A stretch of 64,000 nucleotides of DNA from Patescibacteria group bacterium (GTDB lineage: Bacteria; Patescibacteriota; CPR2; UBA1875; CAIMLA01), in contig JBGSPL010000003.1 of the NCBI GenBank assembly GCA_041738615.1, positions 24,708 through 88,707 on the forward strand, given 5' to 3'. The position numbers and the translations under genes are program-made. Shown one piece after another: positions 49,324 to 61,057 of this stretch (position 1 is the first letter of the stretch; the number at the start of each line of letters is the position of its first letter). The notes beneath the pieces were generated by a model. The model was not told where the DNA came from. It was given only the letters and a program-made list of their open reading frames with translations, and ran no database searches.

Positions 49324-49388
49324 GTATATATATTAGAGCCAGAGCAGAAAATTGTCCACTCGTAAGTAGGCCCCATCAACGGCGAAGG

Positions 49389-49417
49389 CCCCGGAACCTT
49401 GGCGGTTCCGGGGCCTT
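49389..49417. terminator. GC-rich perfect hairpin GGCCCCGGAACC-ttggcg-GGTTCCGGGGCC (12-bp stem) downstream of the foreign ORF
   Basis: Inverted repeat read from sequence. Lies between the stop of the 49426..49992 ORF and the ABC operon promoter. Confidence 0.5.
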
Positions 49418-49425
49418 GCAGAAAG

Positions 49426-49992
49426 CTAGTACTTGATGCCGTACTCGTCGAGCTTCTCGCAAACCGGGGGCGTGAGCCACCCATTCTTGCGCAGAACCTC
49501 GATACCGTCGTCGGGCAAGTCACCCGTCTCGATCCGGTTTCGGATGCACTCATCCATTGCACCCAACTCGGCGACCTCCTTGGTCGGCCGGTGGCGCGTA
49601 GCACACACACAGGCGCTCTTTGCCGCGCCGACGATGCGCACGTGCTCAGTGAGAACCCAGAGCTCGTTGATCCCAGTGGGATCACTAAGCTCGAATCCCA
49701 CCTCGGTCCCATCCTGAGGGACTATCCCCTTGGGCGTCTCGAGCGGATGATCGAGGTCGACACACACGTACTTCTTGCCCGAACGAGCCCAGAAACCTCC
49801 AGGTACCTTTACCCGGTACTCATGAAGGTCCTTGGTCAGGACCGTGGCATAGCGGTAACGACCGCGCCCGGCGGTCCCGGTAATGGTGCCGAACGTGAGC
49901 ATAGCCTCGCGGACGTCCCGGTTGAATGTAAGCCCGGTCTTGTCCTCGAAGTTCTGCCCAGTTGTTCTGGAAACCTCCACCTTGCGCTGCAT
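49426..49992 (-). CDS. Hypothetical protein (188 aa) encoded in a ~62% GC island; likely horizontally acquired
   Basis: Local GC is about 15 points above flanking DNA. Balanced amino-acid composition (K/E/D-rich). Purine-rich RBS (GAGAGGGGA) before the ATG. The competing plus-strand ORF has antisense-like L/R/G-rich composition. Confidence 0.55.
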   Translation of the reverse strand: MQRKVEVSRTTGQNFEDKTGLTFNRDVREAMLTFGTITGTAGRGRYRYATVLTKDLHEYRVKVPGGFWARSGKKYVCVDLDHPLETPKGIVPQDGTEVGFELSDPTGINELWVLTEHVRIVGAAKSACVCATRHRPTKEVAELGAMDECIRNRIETGDLPDDGIEVLRKNGWLTPPVCEKLDEYGIKY

Positions 49993-50118
49993 TGCATCCC
50001 CTCTCGCTGTGGGTAACTTTCCGCTTCCTCCGAAAGCTGGCTAAACCAGCTCACGAACATCCAAGTATACAACAGTTGTTCTCTAAAGTCAAGTATTTCG
50101 ATACCGCCACCCTTCGTA

Positions 50119-50146
50119 TTGACAGGGTCACTGGGTAGAGTAAAAT
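50119..50146 (+). promoter_or_regulatory. Sigma70-like promoter TTGACA-N16-TAAAAT for the response-regulator gene
   Basis: -35 at 50119-50124, -10 at 50141-50146, AGGAG RBS at 50153-50157, ATG at 50163. Confidence 0.55.
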
Positions 50147-51182: not shown

Positions 51183-51258
51183 TGGTGGGCCCGGCGCGAC
51201 TCGAACGCGCGACCAGTTGCTTAAGAGGCAATTGCTCTACCAACTGAGCTACAGGCCC
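51183..51258 (-). tRNA. tRNA-Lys (anticodon CUU)
   Basis: Reverse complement gives GGGCCTGTAGCTCAGTTGGTAGAGCAATTGCCTCTTAAGCAACTGGTCGCGCGTTCGAGTCGCGCCGGGCCCACCA. Loop CTCTTAA. Confidence 0.85.
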
Positions 51259-51447
51259 GCAAATAACTCTGACATACTAAAGATGACGGGGAAAATTATA
51301 GCATTTTAGAGACTGGTTTTCAACCGTTTCAACAATATCTTTCGGCCCCGACAAAAAACGAAGATTTTTGTCGGAAAACGAGGAGTTGCGAAAAGGTGAA
51401 TCGATTAGCTTTAGATAACTCGTGGAGTCTGACAGCAAACTCCGAAG

Positions 51448-51523
51448 TGGTGCGCCCGGTTGGATTCGAACCAACGACCAATAGCTTAGAAGGCTACTGC
51501 TCTATCCCCTGAGCTACGGGCGC
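51448..51523 (-). tRNA. tRNA-Arg (anticodon UCU)
   Basis: Reverse complement gives GCGCCCGTAGCTCAGGGGATAGAGCAGTAGCCTTCTAAGCTATTGGTCGTTGGTTCGAATCCAACCGGGCGCACCA. Loop CTTCTAA. Confidence 0.85.
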
Positions 51524-51612
51524 GTAAAGCCACCTGATTATACTTGATTTAAAGGATATTTTCAATCATTAACCTAGCCACAAAGCCATTTTTCTGTTAT
51601 AATCTGCAGGCC

Positions 51613-52815
51613 ATGAAAACAGACACTAAACAACTAGGCTTTGCGCTTGGTCGCGACACTGCACTCTCGGTAGCAGAAATTTTTGCATACCTGAAGAGAT
51701 TAGGCATAGACACTTTGTCGCGCCTCCTCATCGGTGACATTCTGATTATTGAAATAGCTAGCGCCGAAAAGGATCGGATAGACATAAACTCACTTGGTGG
51801 TAGTATCAAGGTTTTCGAGGTTCTGGGTGAATTTACCTCAGGCACAGAAATCGCCGAAAAATTGCTTACCGAAGTCAATTACGAGTCAGAAAAGCGCGTT
51901 AACTTTGGCGTTTCGGGTTACGGAAATGTGAACAAAAATTTTGTTCTAAAAGCAGGTTACGACGTCAAAAATAAGCTCCAAGAGAGTGGCTATGCCGCAC
52001 GTTTCGTCACAGGGAAAACTGTCGATTTATCGAGCGTAATTGTAAACGAAAACAAGCTTATCGAGCGTGGATTCGAAGCAATCATCGTAAAAGCTGGCAC
52101 ACAATATATCTTAGGCAAAACACTTGCAGTCCAGGACTACAAAGCCTACTCAAAACGTGACTTTGGACGCCCAGTAAGGGATGCACGCAACGGAATGTTG
52201 CCACCAAAGCTTGCTCAAATGATGATAAACTTTGCCGCTTCCCCACTGGAATCCGTCCTATACGACCCTTTTTGTGGTAGTGGTACTATTCTACAAGAAG
52301 CCCTATTTCTCGGTTACCGTGACATTTACGGCAGTGATATAGAAAAGAAGAACATTACCGATACCCTTACCAATATGGAATGGCTCTACCAGCGCTTCGG
52401 GATGCCAAAAATTACCGAGGATAGAGTCTTTCTCTCTGATATTCTAAAGCCAGAAAGAGAGATCGCGAGCGCTGCAATAGTTGGTGAGGGCTACCTCGGT
52501 GAACCAGTGCGTAGACGTAAGGACAAGGCAATCGCCGACTCTCAGAAACTTGCTCAATTCTACATACACGCTCTTACGAACATGACCAAACAGCTTACAG
52601 CAGATGCGACTATAGTAATCGCTATCCCTTTCTATATAGTTGAGAAAGAATACATATACCTGCCGCTAATGGATAAACTCGAAAAGCTGGGTCTTACAAC
52701 GATAAACTACATCCCTAAAGATTTGGAAATCCGTCGTTTTGGGCGTGGGAACCTCACTTACTCACGAGCTGATCAGTTCGTGGGACGAGAAATCCTAGTA
52801 CTCAAAAAGAGCTAG
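51613..52815 (+). CDS. THUMP-domain class I SAM-dependent RNA methyltransferase (RlmL/Trm14-like)
   Basis: N-terminal THUMP-like region; methyltransferase motif I DPFCGSGTILQEA; 400 aa. Confidence 0.7.
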   Translation: MKTDTKQLGFALGRDTALSVAEIFAYLKRLGIDTLSRLLIGDILIIEIASAEKDRIDINSLGGSIKVFEVLGEFTSGTEIAEKLLTEVNYESEKRVNFGVSGYGNVNKNFVLKAGYDVKNKLQESGYAARFVTGKTVDLSSVIVNENKLIERGFEAIIVKAGTQYILGKTLAVQDYKAYSKRDFGRPVRDARNGMLPPKLAQMMINFAASPLESVLYDPFCGSGTILQEALFLGYRDIYGSDIEKKNITDTLTNMEWLYQRFGMPKITEDRVFLSDILKPEREIASAAIVGEGYLGEPVRRRKDKAIADSQKLAQFYIHALTNMTKQLTADATIVIAIPFYIVEKEYIYLPLMDKLEKLGLTTINYIPKDLEIRRFGRGNLTYSRADQFVGREILVLKKS

Positions 52816-52842
52816 CCGGCCGGCTAGCTCTTTGAATAATAG

Positions 52843-54054
52843 TTATTCGTATCTCAAGGCTTCGATCGGATCCTTTTGAGCCGCTCGTAGTGCTGGCCAA
52901 AGGCCGAAGATAATTCCGATTACTGTAGAAACGCCGAGTGCTACTAGTATCACATTCGGGGTTATGGATGGTGTTAATGGTGTCTTCGCAGCGACTACAG
53001 CACCGACGCCAAATGAGATCAGAAGTCCGATCAGTCCACCGATGAGGGTAACGAATACAGCCTCCACTAGGAACTGTGTAGCGATGGCAAGCTTCGTGGC
53101 ACCGACCGCCTTTCGCAGGCCGATCTCCTTGGTTCTTTCGGTTACGGTTACGAGCATGATGTTCATGATACCAATACCGCCAACCACCAGTGAAATCGCT
53201 GCAATTGCAGATACCAAGGTCGTTGCAAGAGACAAGAACTGGTCAAATAGTCCCAAAATGTCGTCCTGTGTAAGCACAGAGAAATTTTCTTCCCCTGCAT
53301 GCGATTTCAATATCGCCTTCTTCACAGCTTCCTTTACGGATGAAACCTTTGCGTCATTTGCCGCCTTCACAACGATACGATTTATAGTTACCTTGCCTTT
53401 ATTGAGAGCTGTACCTGTTTCGAAAGGTACCACCGCAAGTGAGCTAAATTCGTTGCCAAAGATACTAGACGCTTCTACTTCGCCGAAAACACCCACTATC
53501 GTGAAAGGGGTCTTGTTGATACTGATAGTCTTCCCTACAGCATCTACGTCCCCAAACACGTCTTTTTTTATCTGAGGACCGATGACTACGACGTCCCCTG
53601 CGGTAATAGATTCAAACATCTTGCCGTCTTTGACCTTCAGAATCTCGAGGGCTTTCTCAAAATTGGGATAAGTACCTGTGACAGTAGCGTTTACTGGCTT
53701 ACCGTCACTAGTAACCGTGCCAGCCACAAGAGCCATAGGGGCTACTTCTGTTACCCCCGAGACGCCCTTGATTGCATCCACATCATTCAAGGTCAGTATG
53801 TCTCCCGCAATAAAATTCGCCGGGTTCGAACCCCCCATCCCCGAGCCGCTCTTGGTATCAATCTTTCCTGCTGTTACAAACATTAAATTCGAACCAAAAC
53901 CTCTGATTAGGGTGGAGACCTCGTCCTTCAAGCCTTGGCCCAAGGAAACCAGGATGGTGACTGAAGCAACTCCGATAACGATACCAAGAACAGTAAGCAC
54001 ACTGCGAACCTTGTTGGACCAGATAGATAGTAGTGCTGTCTTTACGCTTTCCAT
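52843..54054 (-). CDS. ABC transporter permease, MacB/FtsX-like (periplasmic MacB_PCD + FtsX 4-TM)
   Basis: N-terminal TM, large extracytoplasmic domain, C-terminal FtsX TM bundle. 403 aa. Confidence 0.8.
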   Translation of the reverse strand: MESVKTALLSIWSNKVRSVLTVLGIVIGVASVTILVSLGQGLKDEVSTLIRGFGSNLMFVTAGKIDTKSGSGMGGSNPANFIAGDILTLNDVDAIKGVSGVTEVAPMALVAGTVTSDGKPVNATVTGTYPNFEKALEILKVKDGKMFESITAGDVVVIGPQIKKDVFGDVDAVGKTISINKTPFTIVGVFGEVEASSIFGNEFSSLAVVPFETGTALNKGKVTINRIVVKAANDAKVSSVKEAVKKAILKSHAGEENFSVLTQDDILGLFDQFLSLATTLVSAIAAISLVVGGIGIMNIMLVTVTERTKEIGLRKAVGATKLAIATQFLVEAVFVTLIGGLIGLLISFGVGAVVAAKTPLTPSITPNVILVALGVSTVIGIIFGLWPALRAAQKDPIEALRYE

Positions 54055-54782
54055 TACTTCGCTCCTTTCATTGGTTTCTGGACCTCGCCATCCAGGATTC
54101 TGATTGTGCGATCAGCAAAATCTGCTATCCTCTGATCATGAGTGATAAGAATAACCGTTTTACCCTTTTTGTTAAGCTCCGTCAGCAAATTCATGATTTC
54201 TGTACCGCTCTTGCTATCGAGGTTCCCCGTAGGTTCATCGGCAAGAATGATGTCCGGATTGTTGATGAGAGAACGTGCGATAGCCACACGTTGGATTTGA
54301 CCGCCCGAAAGCTCTGTAGGCCTGTGATCTTCGCGACCTGCTAGCCCGACCTCCCGGAGAAGCTCCCTTGCTCTTTCTTCGCGGTCAACCTTTCCAATCT
54401 TTCGGTACTGAGTGGGCATCAGGACATTCTTCATGGCAGTTATCTTTGATAGTAGATTAAATGTTTGAAAGACGAAACCAATTCGTTCCGAACGCAGCTT
54501 CGCTAGTTTTGAATCGGCCATGTCGAGCTCTATCTTCTTACCAGCGATGAAGAGCTCACCCTTGGTTGGACGATCAAGTAGTCCAATGATATGCATCAAA
54601 GTCGATTTACCTGATCCCGACGGCCCCATAATCGCTACAAACTCTCCGGACTCAATCTTGATATCGATGTTCTTTAGTGCATCGACGTGTAACTTACCTG
54701 TCTTGTATGACTTTGATACCTTTCTTAGTTCTATTGCTACTGACATATCACTCCCATCTAAATAGTTTAATTGCCAAGACAA
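54054..54782 (-). CDS. ABC transporter ATP-binding protein (MacB/LolD-type)
   Basis: Walker A GPSGSGKST, signature LSGGQIQR, Walker B ILADEPT. ATGA-coupled to the permease. Confidence 0.88.
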   Translation of the reverse strand: MSWQLNYLDGSDMSVAIELRKVSKSYKTGKLHVDALKNIDIKIESGEFVAIMGPSGSGKSTLMHIIGLLDRPTKGELFIAGKKIELDMADSKLAKLRSERIGFVFQTFNLLSKITAMKNVLMPTQYRKIGKVDREERARELLREVGLAGREDHRPTELSGGQIQRVAIARSLINNPDIILADEPTGNLDSKSGTEIMNLLTELNKKGKTVILITHDQRIADFADRTIRILDGEVQKPMKGAK

Positions 54783-55935
54783 ACATTATTACCGCCCATA
54801 TTGCGAGTCCTATCAGGTCTCCACTGATCTGAGTGATCGTGTATCCTTTCACCATGACGTTACGGAGTGCATCAGAGAAGTAGGTCAGGGGAAAGTAGTC
54901 CGACGCCCTAAGTAGCCAGTCTGGGAATGCATCCCGAGGGAAAAAGATACCGGAGAGAAACATCTGAGGAAACACAAACAAGTTGGCAAGGGCTGCTACA
55001 GTATTCTGCGTACTTGCGATTCCCGAAAGCGCAAAACCCATCGACAGGAAGATCAAACCTCCGGCAACAATCAAGAGGACCACGAGACCTAGACTGCCGA
55101 CAACATGAAGGTTGAATGCTAGGATGCCGAGGAGTATCAGAATCGATGCCTGCATAAATGTGATGATAACCCTGGAAACTATCTGAGAGAAAATGATTAC
55201 CCCAGGATGAATTGGTGTAGCCAAAAGACGCTTCAGGATACCGCGCTCGCGCCAGGAAACTATCTGGCCAGTGACGGCGAAAATAGAGAGTTGCATTACA
55301 CTCATCGCCACAAGCCCCGGGATCAAGAAATCGATATATTTGAGGTCATTACCAGATATCGAGAGTTGTTTTACCTCGAAGAAATTCGGGACTCTTGCAA
55401 TCTGGTGCGTCACCCCGTCAAATATCTTGTCAAAGACCGTGAATCCGACGCTTATGGTGGACGAGTTCTGGCTCTGATCATAGTAGATATCGATTCGCTG
55501 CGGCGTTACTGTCAATGCAGCTACAGCTGCCTGCTGTTGTGATACTGGCAACTTCGCTAGCTCTGCTTGCTTTGCCCCGTACTCCGCAAAATTCGCCCCA
55601 AAACCCTCAGGAATCACTAGTGCATAGGTCTGCTTGGAGTTCTTGAGGTCCGCCAGAGCGTCGTCCTTGCTCTTCGTGGTAATCGTAAAGACACTGACCT
55701 TTTGTAGTGCTGTTACAATCTGCTGTGACGCCTGATTGTTTGCCTCATCAACAACCGCAACATTAAACTTTACACCGCCGCCCGTATTGATGACACCAAA
55801 AATGCTCATCAACATCACGGGGATAAAAAGCGAGAAGAAAATGGCGGTTTTCTCACGGAAAAACATCAAAATCATGTATTTTGCGATTGTAAGCGTGTTT
55901 AGGATTTCTTTTTTGATTTTACGTAAGTTCATCAT
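54748..55935 (-). CDS. ABC-2 family transporter permease
   Basis: 395 aa. N-terminal TM, large extracytoplasmic loop, five C-terminal TM helices. Confidence 0.7.
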   Translation of the reverse strand: MMNLRKIKKEILNTLTIAKYMILMFFREKTAIFFSLFIPVMLMSIFGVINTGGGVKFNVAVVDEANNQASQQIVTALQKVSVFTITTKSKDDALADLKNSKQTYALVIPEGFGANFAEYGAKQAELAKLPVSQQQAAVAALTVTPQRIDIYYDQSQNSSTISVGFTVFDKIFDGVTHQIARVPNFFEVKQLSISGNDLKYIDFLIPGLVAMSVMQLSIFAVTGQIVSWRERGILKRLLATPIHPGVIIFSQIVSRVIITFMQASILILLGILAFNLHVVGSLGLVVLLIVAGGLIFLSMGFALSGIASTQNTVAALANLFVFPQMFLSGIFFPRDAFPDWLLRASDYFPLTYFSDALRNVMVKGYTITQISGDLIGLAIWAVIMFVLAIKLFRWE

Positions 55936-56693
55936 TAGTCCCTCAATGTCTTTCCGGTTAAGTCTAGGAATACGTCTTCAAGTGTTGCCTCTTGCACCAC
56001 TTTTTTCTTCTTGAACCCACGACCGAGTAGTTTCTTGATCAGGTTTGCCGGGCTATCAATATCGATTATTTGGCCTTTATCTACTACAGCCACGCGGTCA
56101 CAGAGCTCCTCAGCCTCGTCCATATAATGGGTTGTGATAACAACAGTCATCCCTTTTCCGTTTATGTCCCGAATCAGGTCCCATAGATGGCGCCTAGCCT
56201 GAGGGTCCAGACCTGTAGTCGGCTCATCAAGAAAGAGCACTTCAGGTCTATTTACAAGTGCTGAGGCTATAGAAAAACGCTGTTTTTGACCACCGGAAAG
56301 TTTCTTCACCTGGGTTTTTGCTTTCTCTGTCAGTCCAACCTCTTCGAGAACCCTCATAGCGTCCACTCTGACCCCATAGAGGGAAGAGAAGAATTTAATC
56401 AGCTCCTCGAGCGTCAGGTTGTCAAAGAAAGCAGACGACTGAAGCTGCACGCCGATGAGGGCCTTTACCTTAGACTGATCCCGGCAAACATTCACGCCAG
56501 CAACTACAATGTCTCCGCTGTCGCTTTTGCGCAACCCTTCGAGCATTTCGAGAGTGGTGGTTTTCCCCGCGCCGTTTGGCCCGAGCATACCGAATACCTC
56601 CCCCTTCTTGACCTCAAAACTGATACCACGAACAGCCTTCACGTTGCCGAAGGACTTTTGTAAATTCTTTACAGTTATAATGTTTTCGGACAT
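55935..56693 (-). CDS. ABC transporter ATP-binding protein
   Basis: Walker A GPNGAGKTT, signature LSGGQKQR, Walker B LFLDEPT. 252 aa. Confidence 0.88.
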   Translation of the reverse strand: MSENIITVKNLQKSFGNVKAVRGISFEVKKGEVFGMLGPNGAGKTTTLEMLEGLRKSDSGDIVVAGVNVCRDQSKVKALIGVQLQSSAFFDNLTLEELIKFFSSLYGVRVDAMRVLEEVGLTEKAKTQVKKLSGGQKQRFSIASALVNRPEVLFLDEPTTGLDPQARRHLWDLIRDINGKGMTVVITTHYMDEAEELCDRVAVVDKGQIIDIDSPANLIKKLLGRGFKKKKVVQEATLEDVFLDLTGKTLRD

Positions 56694-56929
56694 TATTTCT
56701 CCTTCTTGATTATTGCTGCAAGCATGGACTGCCTTCTCGCCATCTCTGCAGTCATTTTTTCAAAAGCCGAGACCTTCATAAGCATCAGACCGTTATCATC
56801 GATTCCCATCACAAGCAACTTCTCCCCCTTATCGAGACCCAGAGCATTTCTAGCCTCTACAGGAATAACCACCTGCCCCTTATCGCTGACCACCGTGCTG
56901 CCATAAAATTCCGGTTGTGGCATCTTCAT
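56693..56929 (-). CDS. AbrB/SpoVT-type DNA-binding domain transcriptional regulator
   Basis: 78 aa. GQVVIPVEARNALGLDKGEKLLV swapped-hairpin motif. ATGA-coupled to the downstream ABC ATPase. Confidence 0.65.
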   Translation of the reverse strand: MKMPQPEFYGSTVVSDKGQVVIPVEARNALGLDKGEKLLVMGIDDNGLMLMKVSAFEKMTAEMARRQSMLAAIIKKEK

Positions 56930-57006
56930 ATTTACCTCTTACTTTTCTTACTTGTAGTAATTGTAGTATATCCAGAGATTTATGTCAATATCCGACCCAT
57001 TAAGCA

Positions 57007-57035
57007 TTGCAAAAATGTCTGTTTCGTTATATAAT
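57007..57035 (+). promoter_or_regulatory. Near-consensus sigma70 promoter TTGCAA-N17-TATAAT oriented toward the high-GC ORF
   Basis: -35 at 57007-57012, -10 at 57030-57035, in AT-rich DNA about 140 nt upstream of the ATG at 57176. Confidence 0.55.
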
Positions 57036-57175
57036 CGCAAATTACAGTACCTTAAGAATTGGGACTGCCTATACGCTTATTTTTACGAGTGCAAGCTGTA
57101 TTTGATCGTGAATGAATCACTGACAGCTGCCACTCGTAAATGCGAGCTGGCATACACCAATCAGCCAAGGAGGCG

Positions 57176-57901
57176 ATGATTGTGACGAGCACATTGCTTT
57201 GCCTGACCGAGGAGCAGCAGAGGTCTATTCAGGCCCTTGCATCAAATCTCCGGGCAGGATGGTTCGGCGACCTCATGACACACATGCAGCTCACCCTTCT
57301 CGACGGCTACGTTAGCATCGGGACAGACCAGCTCAATCGCGACAAGATCACCCTCAAGTACACCGAGGGGGTATCCTCGCTCGAGATCGTCTCGGAGCCC
57401 AAACGATGGGAACTCCGGGCTCATCACGACGGCGCCGACGCGATGGTGATCCTTGAGCCCGTTGTGACTTCAACGTTCGAGACGGAACCTGTCCTGGAGT
57501 GGACGTTGAAGGCAGTACAACTGCTTACCCCGGCCGCATCCAAGAGCCAGGAGTTCCTGATTCTGGAAGTACTCTTTGCCGCGCTTCGGCGCAATGGCAA
57601 GAAGGCCTTCACGACCCAGGGCAGCGGCAATGTCTTCTCCTTCGACGGTGATCACACTGTTTCATACGTGGGCAAGAAGGACGGCTTCGGCCACCAGCAC
57701 ATCTGGGTCTACGTCGAACATGCCGACCACTTCGAGCTCATCGGGAACGTCTACGGAGACGAGATCCGCACCACGAAGGTCGAGGTGGACGGCATCTACT
57801 TCCACGACAGTGAACAGCGGCGCCACCGCAGCGACCTGATCAACACGAAGGAGATGCACCCAGCCGAAGAAGCGCTCCGCCACATCTGCCGGCGCTTCTA
57901 G
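57176..57901 (+). CDS. Hypothetical protein (~241 aa) encoded in a ~59% GC island adjacent to tRNA-Pro; likely horizontally acquired
   Basis: Likely start ATG at 57176 with SD AAGGAGG at 57167-57173 (the ORF track start at 57140 lacks an SD). GC content is far above flanking DNA. No recognisable domain. Confidence 0.55.
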   Translation: MIVTSTLLCLTEEQQRSIQALASNLRAGWFGDLMTHMQLTLLDGYVSIGTDQLNRDKITLKYTEGVSSLEIVSEPKRWELRAHHDGADAMVILEPVVTSTFETEPVLEWTLKAVQLLTPAASKSQEFLILEVLFAALRRNGKKAFTTQGSGNVFSFDGDHTVSYVGKKDGFGHQHIWVYVEHADHFELIGNVYGDEIRTTKVEVDGIYFHDSEQRRHRSDLINTKEMHPAEEALRHICRRF

Positions 57902-57949
57902 CCGACGTCTGTGTAGACAACACCACGCAAGTTCTACGGAACGCATTAC

Positions 57950-57990
57950 GGACCCCTACGCCACACGGCGGAGGGGTCCAGTTTCGTTTT
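57950..57990 (+). terminator. Terminator hairpin GGACCCCT-(14 nt)-AGGGGTCC followed by T-rich tract
   Basis: 8-bp GC-rich inverted repeat at 57950-57979, then AGTTTCGTTTT. Confidence 0.55.
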
Positions 57991-58024
57991 ATACTATAAA
58001 AAAATAACCCGCAAAGGTTATATA

Positions 58025-58101
58025 TGGTCGGGGTGAAAGGACTCGAACCTTCGACCTCGCGGTCCCAAACCGCGCGCACTAGCCAACTGTGCTACACCCC
58101 G
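58025..58101 (-). tRNA. tRNA-Pro (anticodon UGG)
   Basis: Reverse complement gives CGGGGTGTAGCACAGTTGGCTAGTGCGCGCGGTTTGGGACCGCGAGGTCGAAGGTTCGAGTCCTTTCACCCCGACCA. Loop TTTGGGA. Confidence 0.85.
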
Positions 58102-58159
58102 TCGTATGAAATTAACCTCGATATTATAGTCTTTTTTTGTGCTTATTTCAAGGGAAACA

Positions 58160-59656
58160 CTAATTCCGTCTCAAGACTGCAAAGGTCTCAAAGCTTTTTT
58201 CATCGTGATAGTGTGTATCAAAATACTCCACCATTGGCTTGTTCTTGTAGTAGAGCGACTCCCTATCTTTGTAGACTACTACATATTTCGCCCTCGACTG
58301 CTCCATATCGGCAATAAACTTACCATCTAGGTTAAAGCCATAACCGTCACGATAGTCGAGAAGCAGAACACTCGCTGAGATAAAGCGTGAACCACTGTCT
58401 CTGTGTGACAGCTGATAGAACGTAGCACCATAGTCTGCTGCAAATACTTTGTCTGTCGACGCTGAATGGTCATCTACATATTTGGCGATTTGCAGATATT
58501 CCCTTGCCTCCGCATTGGTTCTGCCTACGAAACCTCTGTAAGTCTCGAGGGTCGAATAACTCAGGTTCACCGCAGCCCCAAAAACAAAGAGCAAGATAAA
58601 GAGTAGACCATAGGGTTTCAGCCAACGAGTTGCGCTGATCAGCAAGTATGCGGCCGCGATAACATAGGCCGGCATTAGAATCTGGAAGTAGTAGAGATAT
58701 GGAACTCCTACAGCAAAGAAAGCGACTGACCCAAATACGAAAGTTAGAGCAAGGTAAATGTAATCATGATTTCCCCGTTTTTTCCATGCCTTTGAGATGA
58801 AGAGCAGTGGTACAACTATGATTAGCGGCGCCGCAAAAGCCACTAGGATGTAGAAAATACTCAGGTTGCTCAGGTCTCCCTTCCAGGCGCTTGTCGAATA
58901 CTTCGCACTGAAGGTAAATGAGGCAAAAATAAACTCATTCAAAGTTCCCTTGGCAGTGAAATATGCAACCCAGGCACCAGCTGCGACGATGAGCGGTAGT
59001 CCAAAGACAAGCGCGTAACCAACAAACTTTTGAAGTTCACGCAAATAATCGACGAGCAACATGATTCCAACAGGGGTGGCAAGGAGCAAGAAATTGCCCT
59101 TCATGAAGAAGAGAACCGCAAAACAACACCCTGAGAGAGCCAGCTTCCACCACTTACGGTCCTCGCGAAAAGAAAAATAGCTGAGTAACATACCCAGATA
59201 AAACACGAGCCCAAAGTTCTCGTTGTTATTTCCACTACTCGTGAACTGAGACAGGTTTCGCCAGAACACGTATATCAGAAGTGAAAGCTTAGCAAATATC
59301 TCGGATTTTTGCGGCATCAGCTTTGGTGCTAATTTCCTTGCCAACAACCAAAAGAGATAGATATCGAAAAGCGCAAAAGCTGTGAGTAGCACTCGATGGA
59401 CTGCAATGTTACCGCCCAGAAATGACATTAGCCCGTTCAGAAGGAAAATCACCGGTGGTTTATGATCCCATGCCGTTACATAGAGAGACCCGCCATGGAG
59501 CCAGTTCTTGCCGACGTAAAAGAAGATCCAGTGGTCACTATCGAAAGGATAGAGCCAGGTTCCCATGCGACAAACTACAAAAGTAAAGACGATTAGCGAC
59601 CAGTAAGAGACCGGCTTCCGCCATTGCTTCATTGTGAATTGCTTGATGCCTTCCAT
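58160..59656 (-). CDS. GT-C fold membrane glycosyltransferase (PMT_2/ArnT-like family)
   Basis: 498 aa, about 11 TM helices. First extracytoplasmic loop WDHKPPVIF resembles the DEKPP-type motif of ArnT/PMT-family glycosyltransferases. Confidence 0.55.
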   Translation of the reverse strand: MEGIKQFTMKQWRKPVSYWSLIVFTFVVCRMGTWLYPFDSDHWIFFYVGKNWLHGGSLYVTAWDHKPPVIFLLNGLMSFLGGNIAVHRVLLTAFALFDIYLFWLLARKLAPKLMPQKSEIFAKLSLLIYVFWRNLSQFTSSGNNNENFGLVFYLGMLLSYFSFREDRKWWKLALSGCCFAVLFFMKGNFLLLATPVGIMLLVDYLRELQKFVGYALVFGLPLIVAAGAWVAYFTAKGTLNEFIFASFTFSAKYSTSAWKGDLSNLSIFYILVAFAAPLIIVVPLLFISKAWKKRGNHDYIYLALTFVFGSVAFFAVGVPYLYYFQILMPAYVIAAAYLLISATRWLKPYGLLFILLFVFGAAVNLSYSTLETYRGFVGRTNAEAREYLQIAKYVDDHSASTDKVFAADYGATFYQLSHRDSGSRFISASVLLLDYRDGYGFNLDGKFIADMEQSRAKYVVVYKDRESLYYKNKPMVEYFDTHYHDEKSFETFAVLRRN

Positions 59657-59809: not shown

Positions 59810-59887
59810 GCGCCCGTAGCTCAGTTGGATTAGAGCGTGTGGTTTCGGCCCACAAGGCCGGGGGTTCGAGCCCCTCCGGGCGCACCA
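59810..59887 (+). tRNA. tRNA-Arg (anticodon UCG)
   Basis: Acceptor GCGCCCG/CGGGCGC, anticodon stem TGTGG/CCACA, loop TTTCGGC, T-loop TTCGAGC, CCA encoded. Confidence 0.8.
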
Positions 59888-59900
59888 ATTAGCATAATGA

Positions 59901-59976
59901 GCGGGTATCGTATAATGGTTTATTATGCGACCCTTCCAAGGTCGAGATAAGGGTTCGATTCCCTTTACCCGCTCCA
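59901..59976 (+). tRNA. tRNA-Gly (anticodon UCC)
   Basis: Acceptor GCGGGTA/TACCCGC, anticodon stem CGACC/GGTCG, loop CTTCCAA, T-loop GGGTTCGATTCCC, discriminator T, CCA. Confidence 0.8.
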
Positions 59977-60179
59977 CGTCAGAATAAACTGACAGCATTC
60001 GTAAATTAGTAAGTCTAACTTACTTCTGCTTCTCGTTATTCTTCCTTTCCGAACAAAATCACAATTTTGTTCGGTGGCTCGACAAAAACCGTAGGATTTT
60101 GTCGAAAGAGGAGGAATCGCGAAAGGACGAAGACGTTGCCTCTACGTAACGTCATAATCCGCTAGCGTTTTCCGACGTG

Positions 60180-60256
60180 GTGACTGTAGCTCAGCTGGTA
60201 GAGCTCCGGTTTGTGGTACCGGCGGTCGCGGGTTCGAGCCCCGTCAGTCACCCCAT
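60180..60256 (+). tRNA. tRNA-His (anticodon GUG) with encoded G-1
   Basis: G-1 + GTGACTG acceptor, loop TTGTGGT, discriminator C, CCA. Confidence 0.85.
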
Positions 60257-60411
60257 ATAAAAATATCTCACCCCTGGGGTGAGTTGTTTTTATATTAGCG
60301 ACCGATGTGTTAAGAATCCAAAGAAGCCATGAAGTTAAGGCCTCGATTACGTTAAATACTCCAACCCGACTTGTATGTCCTAACGCGAACTAATTAGATG
60401 GCTGTAACAGC

Positions 60412-60435
60412 TTCGAGCCCCGTCAGTCACCCCAT
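60412..60435 (+). repeat. Exact 24-nt direct repeat of the tRNA-His 3' end (TTCGAGCCCCGTCAGTCACCCCAT), att-like
   Basis: Identical to 60233-60256 plus one further base. Lies 155 nt downstream of tRNA-His. Confidence 0.8.
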
Positions 60436-60447
60436 TAATTATTAAAA

Positions 60448-60470
60448 AAAGAGGCCCCGGAGGCCTCTTT
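60448..60470. terminator. Bidirectional terminator AAAGAGGCC-ccgg-AGGCCTCTTT
   Basis: 9-bp perfect stem flanked by an A-run and a T-run. Overlaps the stop of the 60470..61057 gene. Confidence 0.75.
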
Positions 60471-61057
60471 CAGTTCTTTGTGGCAACAAAGTCATTTATA
60501 CTTTTAAGAGTATTTATTGCCCTCTGAATTCCCTTTGGATCAATTGTTTTAATCAGCTCGTAAACGTCATCAGACAAAAAGAACTTAATACGCTTCTTTT
60601 GAAGTTCTGGGGAATCATTCTCATTGTAGAGATCTATTTGCCCTGCTGATTGATCAAGCTCATAAACATATTTGAGCATTTCGTCAATTGCTACCGAGTT
60701 CGCTGAAATGACTCGAAGCAGTTCTATGCTTGATGAATCCATATTGCCAGCTATTTGATTCAGGGTCACTACTATCAGATTCAACCACTCAAAAGCGAGT
60801 TTGCGTTTACTATCATCTCGCAGATACTCTAGTAACCCCTCTTTAGTAAACAATTCTTTTGCCGCTTGGAGCTTCTCTATAAGAATTGCTTCGTCACTAG
60901 CAGATGCCTCAACAGAAGCCTGCAGCTCTATCTTCTCGGCTTCAGTAAACTTCGGCTCCATAGAGTTTGTTTCTGATTGGCCTAGTCGGTGACTGTACGA
61001 ATAATCTATATTGAAAGGAGAAAATTCATCGTTTTCTTTCATAACACGAGTATACAT
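60470..61057 (-). CDS. Hypothetical acidic protein (195 aa), AT-rich gene next to tRNA-His att-like repeat
   Basis: About 37% GC against a ~46% background. No motif recognised. Flanked by strong terminators on both sides. Confidence 0.45.
   Translation of the reverse strand: MYTRVMKENDEFSPFNIDYSYSHRLGQSETNSMEPKFTEAEKIELQASVEASASDEAILIEKLQAAKELFTKEGLLEYLRDDSKRKLAFEWLNLIVVTLNQIAGNMDSSSIELLRVISANSVAIDEMLKYVYELDQSAGQIDLYNENDSPELQKKRIKFFLSDDVYELIKTIDPKGIQRAINTLKSINDFVATKN

What the first reader, a model, noticed from the sequence alone, without database searches (positions are those of the whole stretch)
57007..57990. Second high-GC (~59%) single-gene island next to tRNA-Pro, driven by a consensus AT-rich promoter
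57.13-57.99 kb is about 59% GC and encodes one ~241-aa protein of unknown function (SD AAGGAGG, ATG at 57176). A GGACCCCT...AGGGGTCC terminator hairpin follows the gene. The island lies directly on the 3' side of tRNA-Pro(UGG) (58025-58101, minus strand). That is the classic location for integrase-mediated acquisition, although no duplicated tRNA 3' end or integrase is present. A perfect host-type promoter TTGCAA-N17-TATAAT (57007-57035) lies in the AT-rich DNA just upstream, so the foreign gene is placed under native-looking expression signals. Together with island 1, this suggests repeated capture of small high-GC cargo genes. They could be immunity, toxin or host-interaction genes.
Basis: seen in the sequence. 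Interest (0 to 1): 0.7.

Follow-up and report, generated by a model that had tools for sequence, protein, structure and literature searches.

The report
Self-contained high-GC orphan gene module
A roughly 1-kb stretch carrying its own promoter, structured leader, one orphan protein gene and a terminator was inserted next to tRNA-Pro in this Saccharibacteria genome; its closest relatives lack it, and it is a real but modest example of gene gain whose protein function remains unknown.

Summary
The ORF at 57176/57182-57901 has 58.5-59% GC (GC3 0.78) in a 47% GC Candidatus Saccharibacteria genome (z about 4.3). It lies between a sigma-70-like promoter and a very stable terminator hairpin, convergent with tRNA-Pro.

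Three relatives (L004/L055, L005, L012) keep the order glycosyltransferase, tRNA-Pro, AbrB/MazE-ABC operon. They have only 0-12 bp where the window has about 990 bp. The island is therefore a lineage-specific insertion.

The insertion is not tRNA- or integrase-mediated. It lies beyond the tRNA's own terminator, there is no att duplication, and no integrase is nearby.

The promoter is not native to the locus. Promoter plus 140-nt leader lie inside the insert and are homologous (z about 9) to a promoter-leader on metagenome contig L056. There it follows a homologue of this gene and drives an unrelated high-GC ORF. The unit behaves like a phage "moron", but in a chromosome.

The protein family has three members among about 15 billion proteins. 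It has no domain, fold, phage or plasmid match.

"Island 1" is not a recent capture. The sister species has a positional orthologue (29% identity, GC3 0.80) although synonymous sites are saturated.

Function unknown; interest moderate.

The parts
56991..57990 (+). The inserted module as a whole, about 990-1005 bp. The left edge is directly after TGTCAA at 56985-56990. The right edge is somewhere in 57980-57995.
   Evidence: Relatives were aligned by eye to the window. L005 has TGTCAA-CGTTTTATGACC-[tRNA terminator]. L012 has GGTCAA followed directly by the terminator. L004 has 11 bp between the -35 box and the inverted tRNA module.
57007..57035 (+). Sigma-70-type promoter TTGCAA-N17-TATAAT (10/12 match). 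It lies back-to-back with the AbrB/MazE operon promoter, with the two -35 boxes 16 bp apart.
   Evidence: It is homologous to the L056 promoter at about 421-449, which shares TTAAGCAT, ATTGnnAAAATG, TTATATAAT and AGTACCTT exactly 10 nt after the -10 box.
57036..57175 (+). 5' leader of about 140 nt, containing a long hairpin at 57082-57140 (25-nt arms, 80% complementary).
   Evidence: I1. MFE -43.8 kcal/mol, z = -3.8. The L056 leader has a comparable hairpin (z = -3.2). The whole promoter+leader aligns to L056 with score 56 against 21.7 +/- 3.7 in 500 shuffles.
57167..57173 (+). Shine-Dalgarno AAGGAGG, within a conserved GCCAAGGAGGCGA motif.
   Evidence: The same 13-mer lies upstream of the L002 homologue. 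GGGGGCGATGA lies upstream of L056 ORF2.
57176..57901 (+). ORF for an orphan protein: 241 aa from ATG 57176, more likely 239 aa from GTG 57182. It is soluble and acidic (pI 5.7), about 27 kDa, with no TM segment.
   Evidence: It is 45% identical to P0002 (E 7e-76). No Pfam, PHROG, PADLOC, NCBIfam or PDB match.
57950..57992 (+). Intrinsic terminator: a GC-rich 13-bp hairpin (57950-57979) plus a T-rich tail.
   Evidence: -26.3 kcal/mol, z = -6.3. It is conserved in L002 and L056, with 4 pairs changed on both sides.
57996..58024 (-). tRNA-Pro's own terminator (ATAACC/GGTTAT stem plus T-run on the minus strand). It is intact and marks the right flank of the insertion.
   Evidence: Sequence. The homologous element is present in L005 and L012.
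58025..58101 (-). tRNA-Pro(UGG). It is intact, 100% identical to that of L004 and L006, and is not the integration target.
58123..58151 (-). tRNA-Pro promoter TTGAAA-N17-TATAAT.
   Evidence: It is homologous to the tRNA-Pro promoter of L004, which lies in the inverted orientation.
56960..56988 (-). Promoter TTGACA-N17-TACAAT of the AbrB/MazE-like gene (56693-56929) and ABC-transporter operon. It forms the left flank of the insertion.
   Evidence: It is conserved in L004, L005 and L012. The gene matches Pfam MazE_antitoxin at 1.4e-7.
49385..50092 (-). Island 1, a comparison module with the same architecture. Promoter TTGACT-N17-TATACT at 50064-50092, ORF at 49426-49992 (188 aa, GC3 0.76), and a 14-bp GC hairpin at 49385-49417.
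   Evidence: The positional orthologue is at L055 18622-19218 (29% identity, E 8e-25, GC3 0.80), with conserved flanks and compensatory hairpin changes.

Best explanation
Island 2 is a self-contained, moron-like expression module. It consists of a sigma-70-type promoter, a ~140-nt structured leader, a strong SD, one 239/241-aa soluble orphan protein gene and an intrinsic terminator.

The module entered this Candidatus Saccharibacteria lineage as one piece. It came from a pool of similarly built modules in which AT-rich promoter-leaders alternate with GC3-rich ORFs. It landed by non-site-specific (illegitimate) recombination in the 0-12-bp spacer between the divergent AbrB/MazE-ABC operon promoter and the tRNA-Pro terminator.

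It is transcribed away from the ABC operon and stops at its own hairpin before it can run antisense into tRNA-Pro.

Shown: the composition, the anatomy, absence from relatives, the insertion point, homology of the promoter-leader and of ORF+terminator to L056 and L002, and the lack of integrase or att.

Inferred: that the promoter fires, that insertion was illegitimate and possibly followed uptake by natural competence, and that the protein is a dispensable accessory factor. My guess for its role is inter-microbial conflict or host interaction, because such rare, patchy, autonomously expressed orphans usually have that kind of role. That step carries low confidence.
For: - Composition: GC3 0.78 against 0.45-0.56 in neighbours; z = 4.3.
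- Organism: Candidatus Saccharibacteria (record titles).
- Locus comparison: GT, tRNA-Pro and AbrB/MazE are contiguous, with a 93-121-bp tRNA-to-MazE spacer, in L004/L055, L005 and L012. The window has 1095 bp there.
- Both junctions are confirmed by an independent Logan assembly that is 100% identical over 51229-58054.
- Promoter and terminator.
- Terminator hairpin conserved with compensatory changes in three family members.
- Promoter+leader homologous to L056 396-590, which drives a different ORF directly downstream of a P0001 homologue. Score 56 against 21.7 +/- 3.7, with 0 of 500 shuffles reaching it; other window promoters are not significant. TATAAT-N10-AGTACCTT occurs once in the window, against 0.02 expected, and once in L056.
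- Family of 3 in 1.84e9 representatives.
- No duplicated tRNA end and no integrase in the neighbourhood.
- Moron criteria as listed in PMC2920897.
- Saccharibacteria are naturally competent epibionts of Actinobacteria (PMC10633639).
Against: - Only two other family members exist, both on contigs of 1.3 kb or less and of unknown organism. The 'pool of modules' therefore rests on one informative contig (L056).
- No transcription data exist.
- The exact right edge is ambiguous within about 15 bp. A 13-nt direct repeat (57021-57033 / 57981-57993, 12/13 identical) could mark a different junction, though this repeat length is near chance expectation.
- Morons are defined inside phage genomes, and nothing phage-like flanks this module.
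- The protein function is a guess. The AF2 model is poor (pLDDT 49) and the fold searches are uninformative.
Confidence: 0.6

Rival explanations
1. A fragment of a high-GC actinobacterial host chromosome, or of one of its phages or plasmids, was captured directly after uptake by natural competence. A promoter was then recruited or evolved in place.
For: - GC3 is 0.78, GC1 > GC2, and the terminator hairpin is GC-rich.
- Saccharibacteria grow on Actinobacteria and are naturally competent (PMC10633639).
- Homologues of the neighbouring glycosyltransferase occur on 67-69% GC Microbacteriaceae contigs, so genes are shared between the two groups.
Against: - There is no actinobacterial or any other named homologue among about 15 billion proteins, 50,697 phages and 72,556 plasmids.
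- The promoter-leader is inside the insert and is homologous to one on L056. There, a 35% GC spacer separates two GC-rich ORFs, an architecture unlike actinobacterial DNA.
- GC3 of 0.68-0.8 is lower than the 0.90 seen in the Amnibacterium gene.
Confidence: 0.2
2. The module belongs to a resident class of Saccharibacteria accessory genes. Their high GC3 is actively maintained, for example by GC-biased gene conversion at recombination-prone loci or by selection. It moved here from elsewhere in the Saccharibacteria pangenome and has no high-GC donor.
For: - The island 1 orthologues in the window and L055 both keep GC3 of 0.76-0.80. Meanwhile flanking genes show dS of 0.6 to saturated, and the island's own third positions are only 37% identical.
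- Other lineage-specific orphans in relatives also have GC3 of 0.67-0.80.
- A shared promoter-leader could act as a recombination anchor.
Against: - No mechanism is known that would raise GC3 by about 0.25-0.3 in single genes of a bacterium.
- The sample is tiny.
- Independent replacement of the ORF interior from an external pool would explain island 1 equally well.
Confidence: 0.12
3. It is a remnant of an integrase-mediated genomic island at tRNA-Pro, with the integrase and att sites since eroded.
For: - It is adjacent to the 3' side of tRNA-Pro.
- A distant relative (L013) carries a duplicated tRNA-Pro 3' end, so integration at this tRNA does occur in the group.
Against: - The tRNA and its terminator are intact, and the insert starts beyond the terminator.
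- There is no partial tRNA copy with up to 3 mismatches.
- No recombinase is nearby.
- The insert is a single complete transcription unit of 1 kb.
Confidence: 0.04
4. It is an assembly chimera, contamination, or an ancestral gene lost in all the relatives examined.
For: - The source is a metagenome-derived genome.
- The Logan contig ends inside tRNA-Pro.
Against: - Two assemblies agree base-for-base across both junctions.
- The junctions are biologically coherent, with divergent promoters and back-to-back terminators.
- Three relatives at different depths have compact 0-12-bp spacers, so loss would require three precise deletions.
Confidence: 0.04

Closest known systems
Phage 'morons' (Hendrix/Juhala concept; criteria as summarised in PMC2920897)
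   Same: It is one extra gene inserted between two genes that are adjacent in relatives. It carries its own sigma-70 promoter and factor-independent terminator, has a GC content different from its surroundings, and related units occur in different contexts.
   Different: It sits in a bacterial chromosome between core genes (ABC operon, tRNA, glycosyltransferase), not in a phage or prophage. The host is a CPR/Saccharibacteria genome. The promoter-leader itself is shared between modules that carry unrelated ORFs.
tRNA-linked genomic islands and islets (integrase-mediated)
   Same: It lies next to the 3' side of a tRNA gene, has foreign composition, and is lineage-specific.
   Different: There is no integrase and no att or tRNA-end duplication. 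The insertion is outside the tRNA and its terminator, and the insert is only 1 kb.
Integron gene cassettes
   Same: It is a single-ORF unit followed by an inverted repeat, and one related contig (L056) shows modules in tandem.
   Different: Each module has its own promoter, whereas cassettes are normally promoterless. The inverted repeat is a perfect GC-rich terminator hairpin with a T tail, not an attC. No intI or attI is present.
Orphan (ORFan) accessory genes acquired by transformation in naturally competent bacteria
   Same: It is a rare, patchily distributed gene of unknown function in a naturally competent group, inserted in an intergenic spacer with no mobile-element hallmarks.
   Different: It comes with a conserved, portable promoter-leader. 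Together with other orphans of this clade, it has a consistently GC3-rich coding region.

Membership tests
Integrase-mediated tRNA-linked genomic island | Tyrosine or serine recombinase gene in or beside the island | tested here: not met
   Pfam annotation of all called genes from 51.2 to 58.05 kb and of the syntenic relatives shows ABC transporters, a methyltransferase, thioredoxin, a response regulator, the GT, HU, YmdB and RNase Y only.
Integrase-mediated tRNA-linked genomic island | Insertion within the tRNA gene, with a direct repeat of the tRNA 3' end (attL/attR) | tested here: not met
   The 25-nt tRNA-Pro 3' end occurs once in 64 kb with up to 3 mismatches allowed. The insert begins beyond the tRNA terminator.
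Phage moron | Own promoter and own terminator flanking the gene | tested here: met
   TTGCAA-N17-TATAAT at 57007-57035. Hairpin of -26.3 kcal/mol with z = -6.3 plus a T tail. This is sequence-level evidence only; transcription was not tested.
Phage moron | Base composition different from neighbouring genes | tested here: met
   GC 58.5% against 46.7% background, and GC3 0.78 against about 0.5.
Phage moron | Inserted between genes that are adjacent in related genomes | tested here: met
   L004/L055, L005 and L012 have the AbrB/MazE gene and tRNA-Pro 93-121 bp apart. In the window they are 1095 bp apart.
Phage moron | Resides in a phage or prophage genome | tested here: not met
   The flanks are conserved chromosomal genes. 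There is no PHROG hit and no match in 50,697 phage records or IMG/VR.
Integron gene cassette | Promoterless ORF followed by an attC site, in an array next to intI/attI | tested here: not met
   The module has its own promoter. The 3' element is a perfect 13-bp GC stem with a 4-nt loop and a T tail, typical of a terminator. No integrase is nearby. attC was not searched with a dedicated model.
Type II toxin-antitoxin pair with the adjacent MazE/AbrB-like gene | Co-oriented two-gene operon of antitoxin plus toxin | tested here: not met
   The genes are divergent. The MazE/AbrB-like gene heads an ABC-transporter operon that is conserved in relatives lacking the island. There is no toxin domain in P0001.
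Recent transfer from an actinobacterial host genome | Detectable homologue in Actinobacteria, or a phylogeny nested in them | tested here: not met
   Only P0002 (864-bp contig) and the L056 fragment are homologous in 5.8e9 clusters and 1.84e9 representatives. GTDB representative genomes gave none.
Known anti-phage defence proteins (PADLOC) | Match to a defence-system profile | tested here: not met
   No PADLOC hit at E <= 1 for P0001 or P0003.

The most novel reading that the evidence does not exclude
Island 2, island 1 and the other GC3-rich orphans seen in the relatives may belong to a previously undescribed pool of portable 'promoter-leader + orphan ORF + terminator' modules that circulate among Saccharibacteria.

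In this reading the same AT-rich promoter-leader is recombined onto unrelated ORFs. The coding regions keep GC3 of about 0.7-0.9 even after synonymous sites saturate.

That would imply one of two things. Either there is a continuing gene stream from the mobilome of their high-GC actinobacterial hosts, or there is a localised GC-biased recombination process at hypervariable epibiont-host interaction loci.
Probability: 0.22. Interest if true: 0.75.

Novelty: new variant of a known kind. Interest (0 to 1): 0.45.

Why it matters
Saccharibacteria have tiny, streamlined genomes and live attached to high-GC Actinobacteria. How they gain new genes is poorly documented.

This case shows gain of a ready-to-express 1-kb unit with no mobile-element machinery. 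It also shows that its expression signals travel with it rather than being borrowed from the host locus.

The side finding may matter more. A whole class of lineage-specific orphans in this clade is GC3-rich. One of them has stayed GC3-rich at a fixed locus while its protein diverged to 29% identity. If that holds genome-wide, it points either to sustained host-to-epibiont gene flow or to an unusual compositional force. It would also flag candidate host-interaction genes that can now be tested by natural transformation.

Tried and rejected
- Domain and family searches on P0001 and P0003 found nothing significant: Pfam, PHROGs, PADLOC, NCBIfam and PDB sequences. The best hit was DUF3601 at E 0.14.
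- Scans for family members found none. These covered GTDB genomes, JGI metagenomes and IMG/VR with peptide patterns and a degenerate DNA pattern for DLINT[KR]EMHPA.
- tblastn against phages and plasmids found none.
- The promoter-leader motif gave mixed results in IMG/VR. The 29-base version had no hit. The 14-base version gave at least 120 chance hits, none with extended similarity.
- I tested whether the leader is a decayed tRNA-Pro copy, prompted by the TTGGGAC match. Rfam in E-value mode finds no tRNA there, so I rejected this.
- I considered the 13-nt direct repeat at 57021/57981 as a target-site duplication. I rejected it because the L056 homology spans both sides of the left copy, and a repeat of that length is near chance expectation.
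- Profile-profile comparison among the island 2 family, the island 1 family and L056 ORF2 showed no relationship.
- L056 ORF2 has only weak matches to hypothetical proteins on Bosea plasmids, and their context is uninformative.
- A literature search for the sample accessions found nothing.

Full report
**1. What is in the sequence**

The window averages 47.0% GC. Two narrow peaks stand out: 49356-50055 at 60.4% and 57279-57978 at 59.4%. The next highest 700-bp window is 54%.

The 57.2-57.9 kb peak coincides with one ORF, 57176-57901 on the + strand. Its GC1/GC2/GC3 are 0.60/0.37/0.78. Sixteen neighbouring genes have GC3 of 0.37-0.56. The excess is therefore mainly at synonymous positions, as expected for real coding sequence of foreign or unusual codon usage.

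The other features are as follows.
- The SD AAGGAGG is at 57167-57173.
- The ATG at 57176 is only 2 nt downstream of it, and the in-frame GTG at 57182 is 8 nt downstream.
- The homologue on L002 starts 7 nt after the identical GCCAAGGAGGCGA motif. GTG 57182 (239 aa) is therefore the more likely start.
- The promoter-like site TTGCAA-N17-TATAAT is at 57007-57035 (10/12 match).
- The hairpin at 57950-57979 has 13-nt arms with one mismatch. It folds at -26.3 kcal/mol (z = -6.3) and is followed by AGTTTCGTTTTAT.
- tRNA-Pro(UGG) lies at 58025-58101 on the minus strand. Its own small terminator (57996-58024) lies between it and the island.

**2. Organism and comparative context**

The neighbouring glycosyltransferase (GT, 58160-59656) has orthologues at 82%, 70%, 64% and lower identity. 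GTDB records name these genomes Candidatus Saccharibacteria.

Three relatives share a compact arrangement: L004/L055 (82%), L005 (70%) and L012 (49%). In all three, the GT, tRNA-Pro and the AbrB/MazE-like first gene of an ABC-transporter operon are contiguous. The -35 box of the AbrB/MazE promoter lies 0-12 bp from the tRNA-Pro module. The window has about 990 bp at that point. Its AbrB/MazE gene and tRNA-Pro are 1095 bp apart, against 93-121 bp in the relatives.

Gain in the window's lineage is the parsimonious reading. A Logan assembly of SRR28170474 is 100% identical over 51229-58054 and spans both junctions.

**3. Where and how it was inserted**

The left edge is immediately after TGTCAA (56985-56990), which is the -35 box of the AbrB/MazE promoter on the minus strand. 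The right edge is at 57980-57995, just before the tRNA terminator.

The tRNA is intact and identical to that of the relatives. Its 3' 25-mer occurs only once in 64 kb, even with three mismatches allowed. No recombinase is present in the annotated neighbourhood. The 'classic tRNA/integrase' reading is therefore not supported.

There are no terminal inverted repeats. The only flanking direct repeat is GTTTCGTT(A/T)TATA at 57021 and 57981. It is of a length expected about once by chance, and the homology described next contradicts it as a junction.

**4. The promoter belongs to the insert**

Exhaustive protein searches found only two relatives. P0002 is 45% identical and sits on an 864-bp contig (L002). 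The other is a C-terminal fragment on a 1263-bp contig, L056.

L056 is informative. It carries, in order:
- the 3' end of a frameshifted P0001 homologue;
- a GC-rich terminator hairpin (-29.2 kcal/mol);
- a 35% GC spacer with TTGACA-N17-TATAAT;
- a leader with a long hairpin;
- an SD, GGGGGCGATGA;
- a second, unrelated ORF of at least 226 aa with GC3 0.73.

The window's promoter plus leader (56991-57185) aligns along its whole length with this L056 spacer. The score is 56 against 21.7 +/- 3.7 in 500 dinucleotide shuffles, with none reaching it. Other promoters in the window give no signal. TATAAT-N10-AGTACCTT occurs once in the window (0.02 expected) and once in L056, with the same spacing.

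The ORF, SD and terminator are homologous to L002 and L056. Four hairpin pairs are changed on both sides.

The complete unit of promoter, leader, ORF and terminator is therefore what was inserted. The same kind of promoter-leader is used by a different ORF elsewhere.

**5. Island 1 is a different story**

The sister genome (L055) has a 198-aa gene at the same position, between the response regulator and the ABC ATPase. It is 29% identical to the window's 188-aa protein (E 8e-25), with 59.8% GC and GC3 0.80. The promoter, the end of the leader, the first and last codons and the terminator are all conserved. The terminator shows compensatory changes.

Flanking orthologues are 89-99% identical in protein, with dS from 0.6 to saturated. 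The island gene has dN 0.79 and only 37% third-position identity.

Island 1 is therefore old at its locus, hyperdivergent, and still GC3-rich in both species. It is not a recent capture. Other lineage-specific orphans in the relatives, lying between TsaB and RNase Y, also have GC3 of 0.67-0.80. Why these genes stay GC3-rich is unexplained.

**6. The protein**

The protein is about 27 kDa, has pI 5.7 and has no hydrophobic segment. The conserved blocks are FDG(D/E)HTVSYVG, IW-YVEH-DHFE-IGN-YG and HR-DLINTKEMHPA. They are rich in His, Asp and Glu.

No profile, structure, phage or plasmid search gave a match. The AF2 model has pLDDT 49, and the fold searches on it are uninformative.

Function cannot be assigned. 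An accessory role in conflict or host interaction is a guess from the pattern of rarity, patchiness and autonomous expression.

**7. Comparison with known systems**

The unit meets four of the five moron criteria listed in PMC2920897: own promoter and terminator, deviant GC, insertion between otherwise adjacent genes, and occurrence in different contexts. It fails the fifth because it is not in a phage.

It fails the defining tests for a tRNA-integrase island, an integron cassette and a TA pair with the neighbouring MazE-like gene (see the membership table).

Direct transfer from an actinobacterial host is biologically plausible. Saccharibacteria are naturally competent epibionts of Actinobacteria (PMC10633639), and GT homologues occur on 67-69% GC Microbacteriaceae contigs. 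However, this route lacks any homologue and does not explain the AT-rich promoter-leader shared with L056.

**8. Verdict**

This is a real, lineage-specific, moron-like single-gene module of unknown function. It was inserted without site-specific machinery next to, but not into, tRNA-Pro, and it brought its own expression signals.

I rate the interest as moderate. The wider pattern of GC3-rich orphans with a portable promoter-leader in this Saccharibacteria clade is the part that deserves follow-up.

Noticed in passing
window 49385-50092; L055 18500-19262: Island 1 has a positional orthologue in the sister species. The protein is only 29% identical, but GC3 is equally high (0.80). Promoter, leader and terminator are conserved, while flanking genes are 89-99% identical and synonymous sites are saturated. 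The persistent GC3 is unexplained.
   Followed up: partly
L056 1-1263 (JGI 3300038998): Two high-GC ORFs lie in tandem, separated by a terminator and a 35% GC promoter-leader that is homologous to the window's. The first ORF, a P0001 homologue, carries a frameshift near 170-190. The second ORF has only weak matches to hypothetical proteins on Bosea plasmids.
   Followed up: partly
window 57996-58151 vs L004 7500-7680 and L006 7500-7640: The tRNA-Pro gene, together with its promoter and terminator, is inverted as a unit between close relatives. L004 and L006 have one orientation; the window, L005 and L012 have the other.
   Followed up: partly
window 59810-61057 vs L004 5088-6011: The order of the tRNA-Arg/Gly/His cluster differs between the two genomes. 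The AAA_17/ADK-like gene next to the GT in relatives is absent from the window. In its place the window has a low-GC (39%) 195-aa orphan at 60470-61057 (minus strand) with no Pfam hit. The tRNA-rich stretch is a plasticity zone.
   Followed up: no
L013 3176-3520: A second copy of the tRNA-Pro 3' end (CCTTTCACCCCGACCA), plus inverted T-arm fragments, lies about 210 bp downstream of tRNA-Pro in a distant Saccharimonadales MAG. It looks like a scar of integration or rearrangement at this tRNA.
   Followed up: no
L006 10285-10923: At the island 1 position this relative has a TTGACA-N17-TATAAT promoter followed by about 500 nt of GC-richer sequence. The stretch has no ORF and no Rfam match. It may be a decayed gene or an unknown RNA.
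   Followed up: no
L055 5470-5640; L006 851-1020: About 170 nt just after the TsaB-like gene are conserved between the two relatives and read as a spurious 'ORF' in both. This may be an unannotated ncRNA. There was no Rfam hit at gathering threshold.
   Followed up: no
L055 5651-5962; L006 1027-1840: More small lineage-specific orphans with GC3 of 0.67-0.80 lie between TsaB and RNase Y in the relatives. The corresponding locus lies beyond the end of the window.
   Followed up: partly
L017, L026 (3501-4988): Homologues of the PMT_2 glycosyltransferase (39-43% identity) sit on 67-69% GC contigs binned as Amnibacterium and Leucobacter (Microbacteriaceae). This hints at gene sharing between Saccharibacteria and likely actinobacterial hosts.
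   Followed up: no
window 56985-57012 and 50087-50124: Both islands sit back-to-back with a divergent host promoter. The -35 boxes are 16 bp apart at island 2 (AbrB/MazE operon) and 26 bp apart at island 1 (response regulator). Shared regulation by the AbrB-like protein is conceivable.
   Followed up: no
window 58054 (end of Logan contig L001): The independent Logan assembly breaks inside tRNA-Pro. The likely cause is that the identical tRNA is shared by co-occurring Saccharibacteria strains.
   Followed up: no
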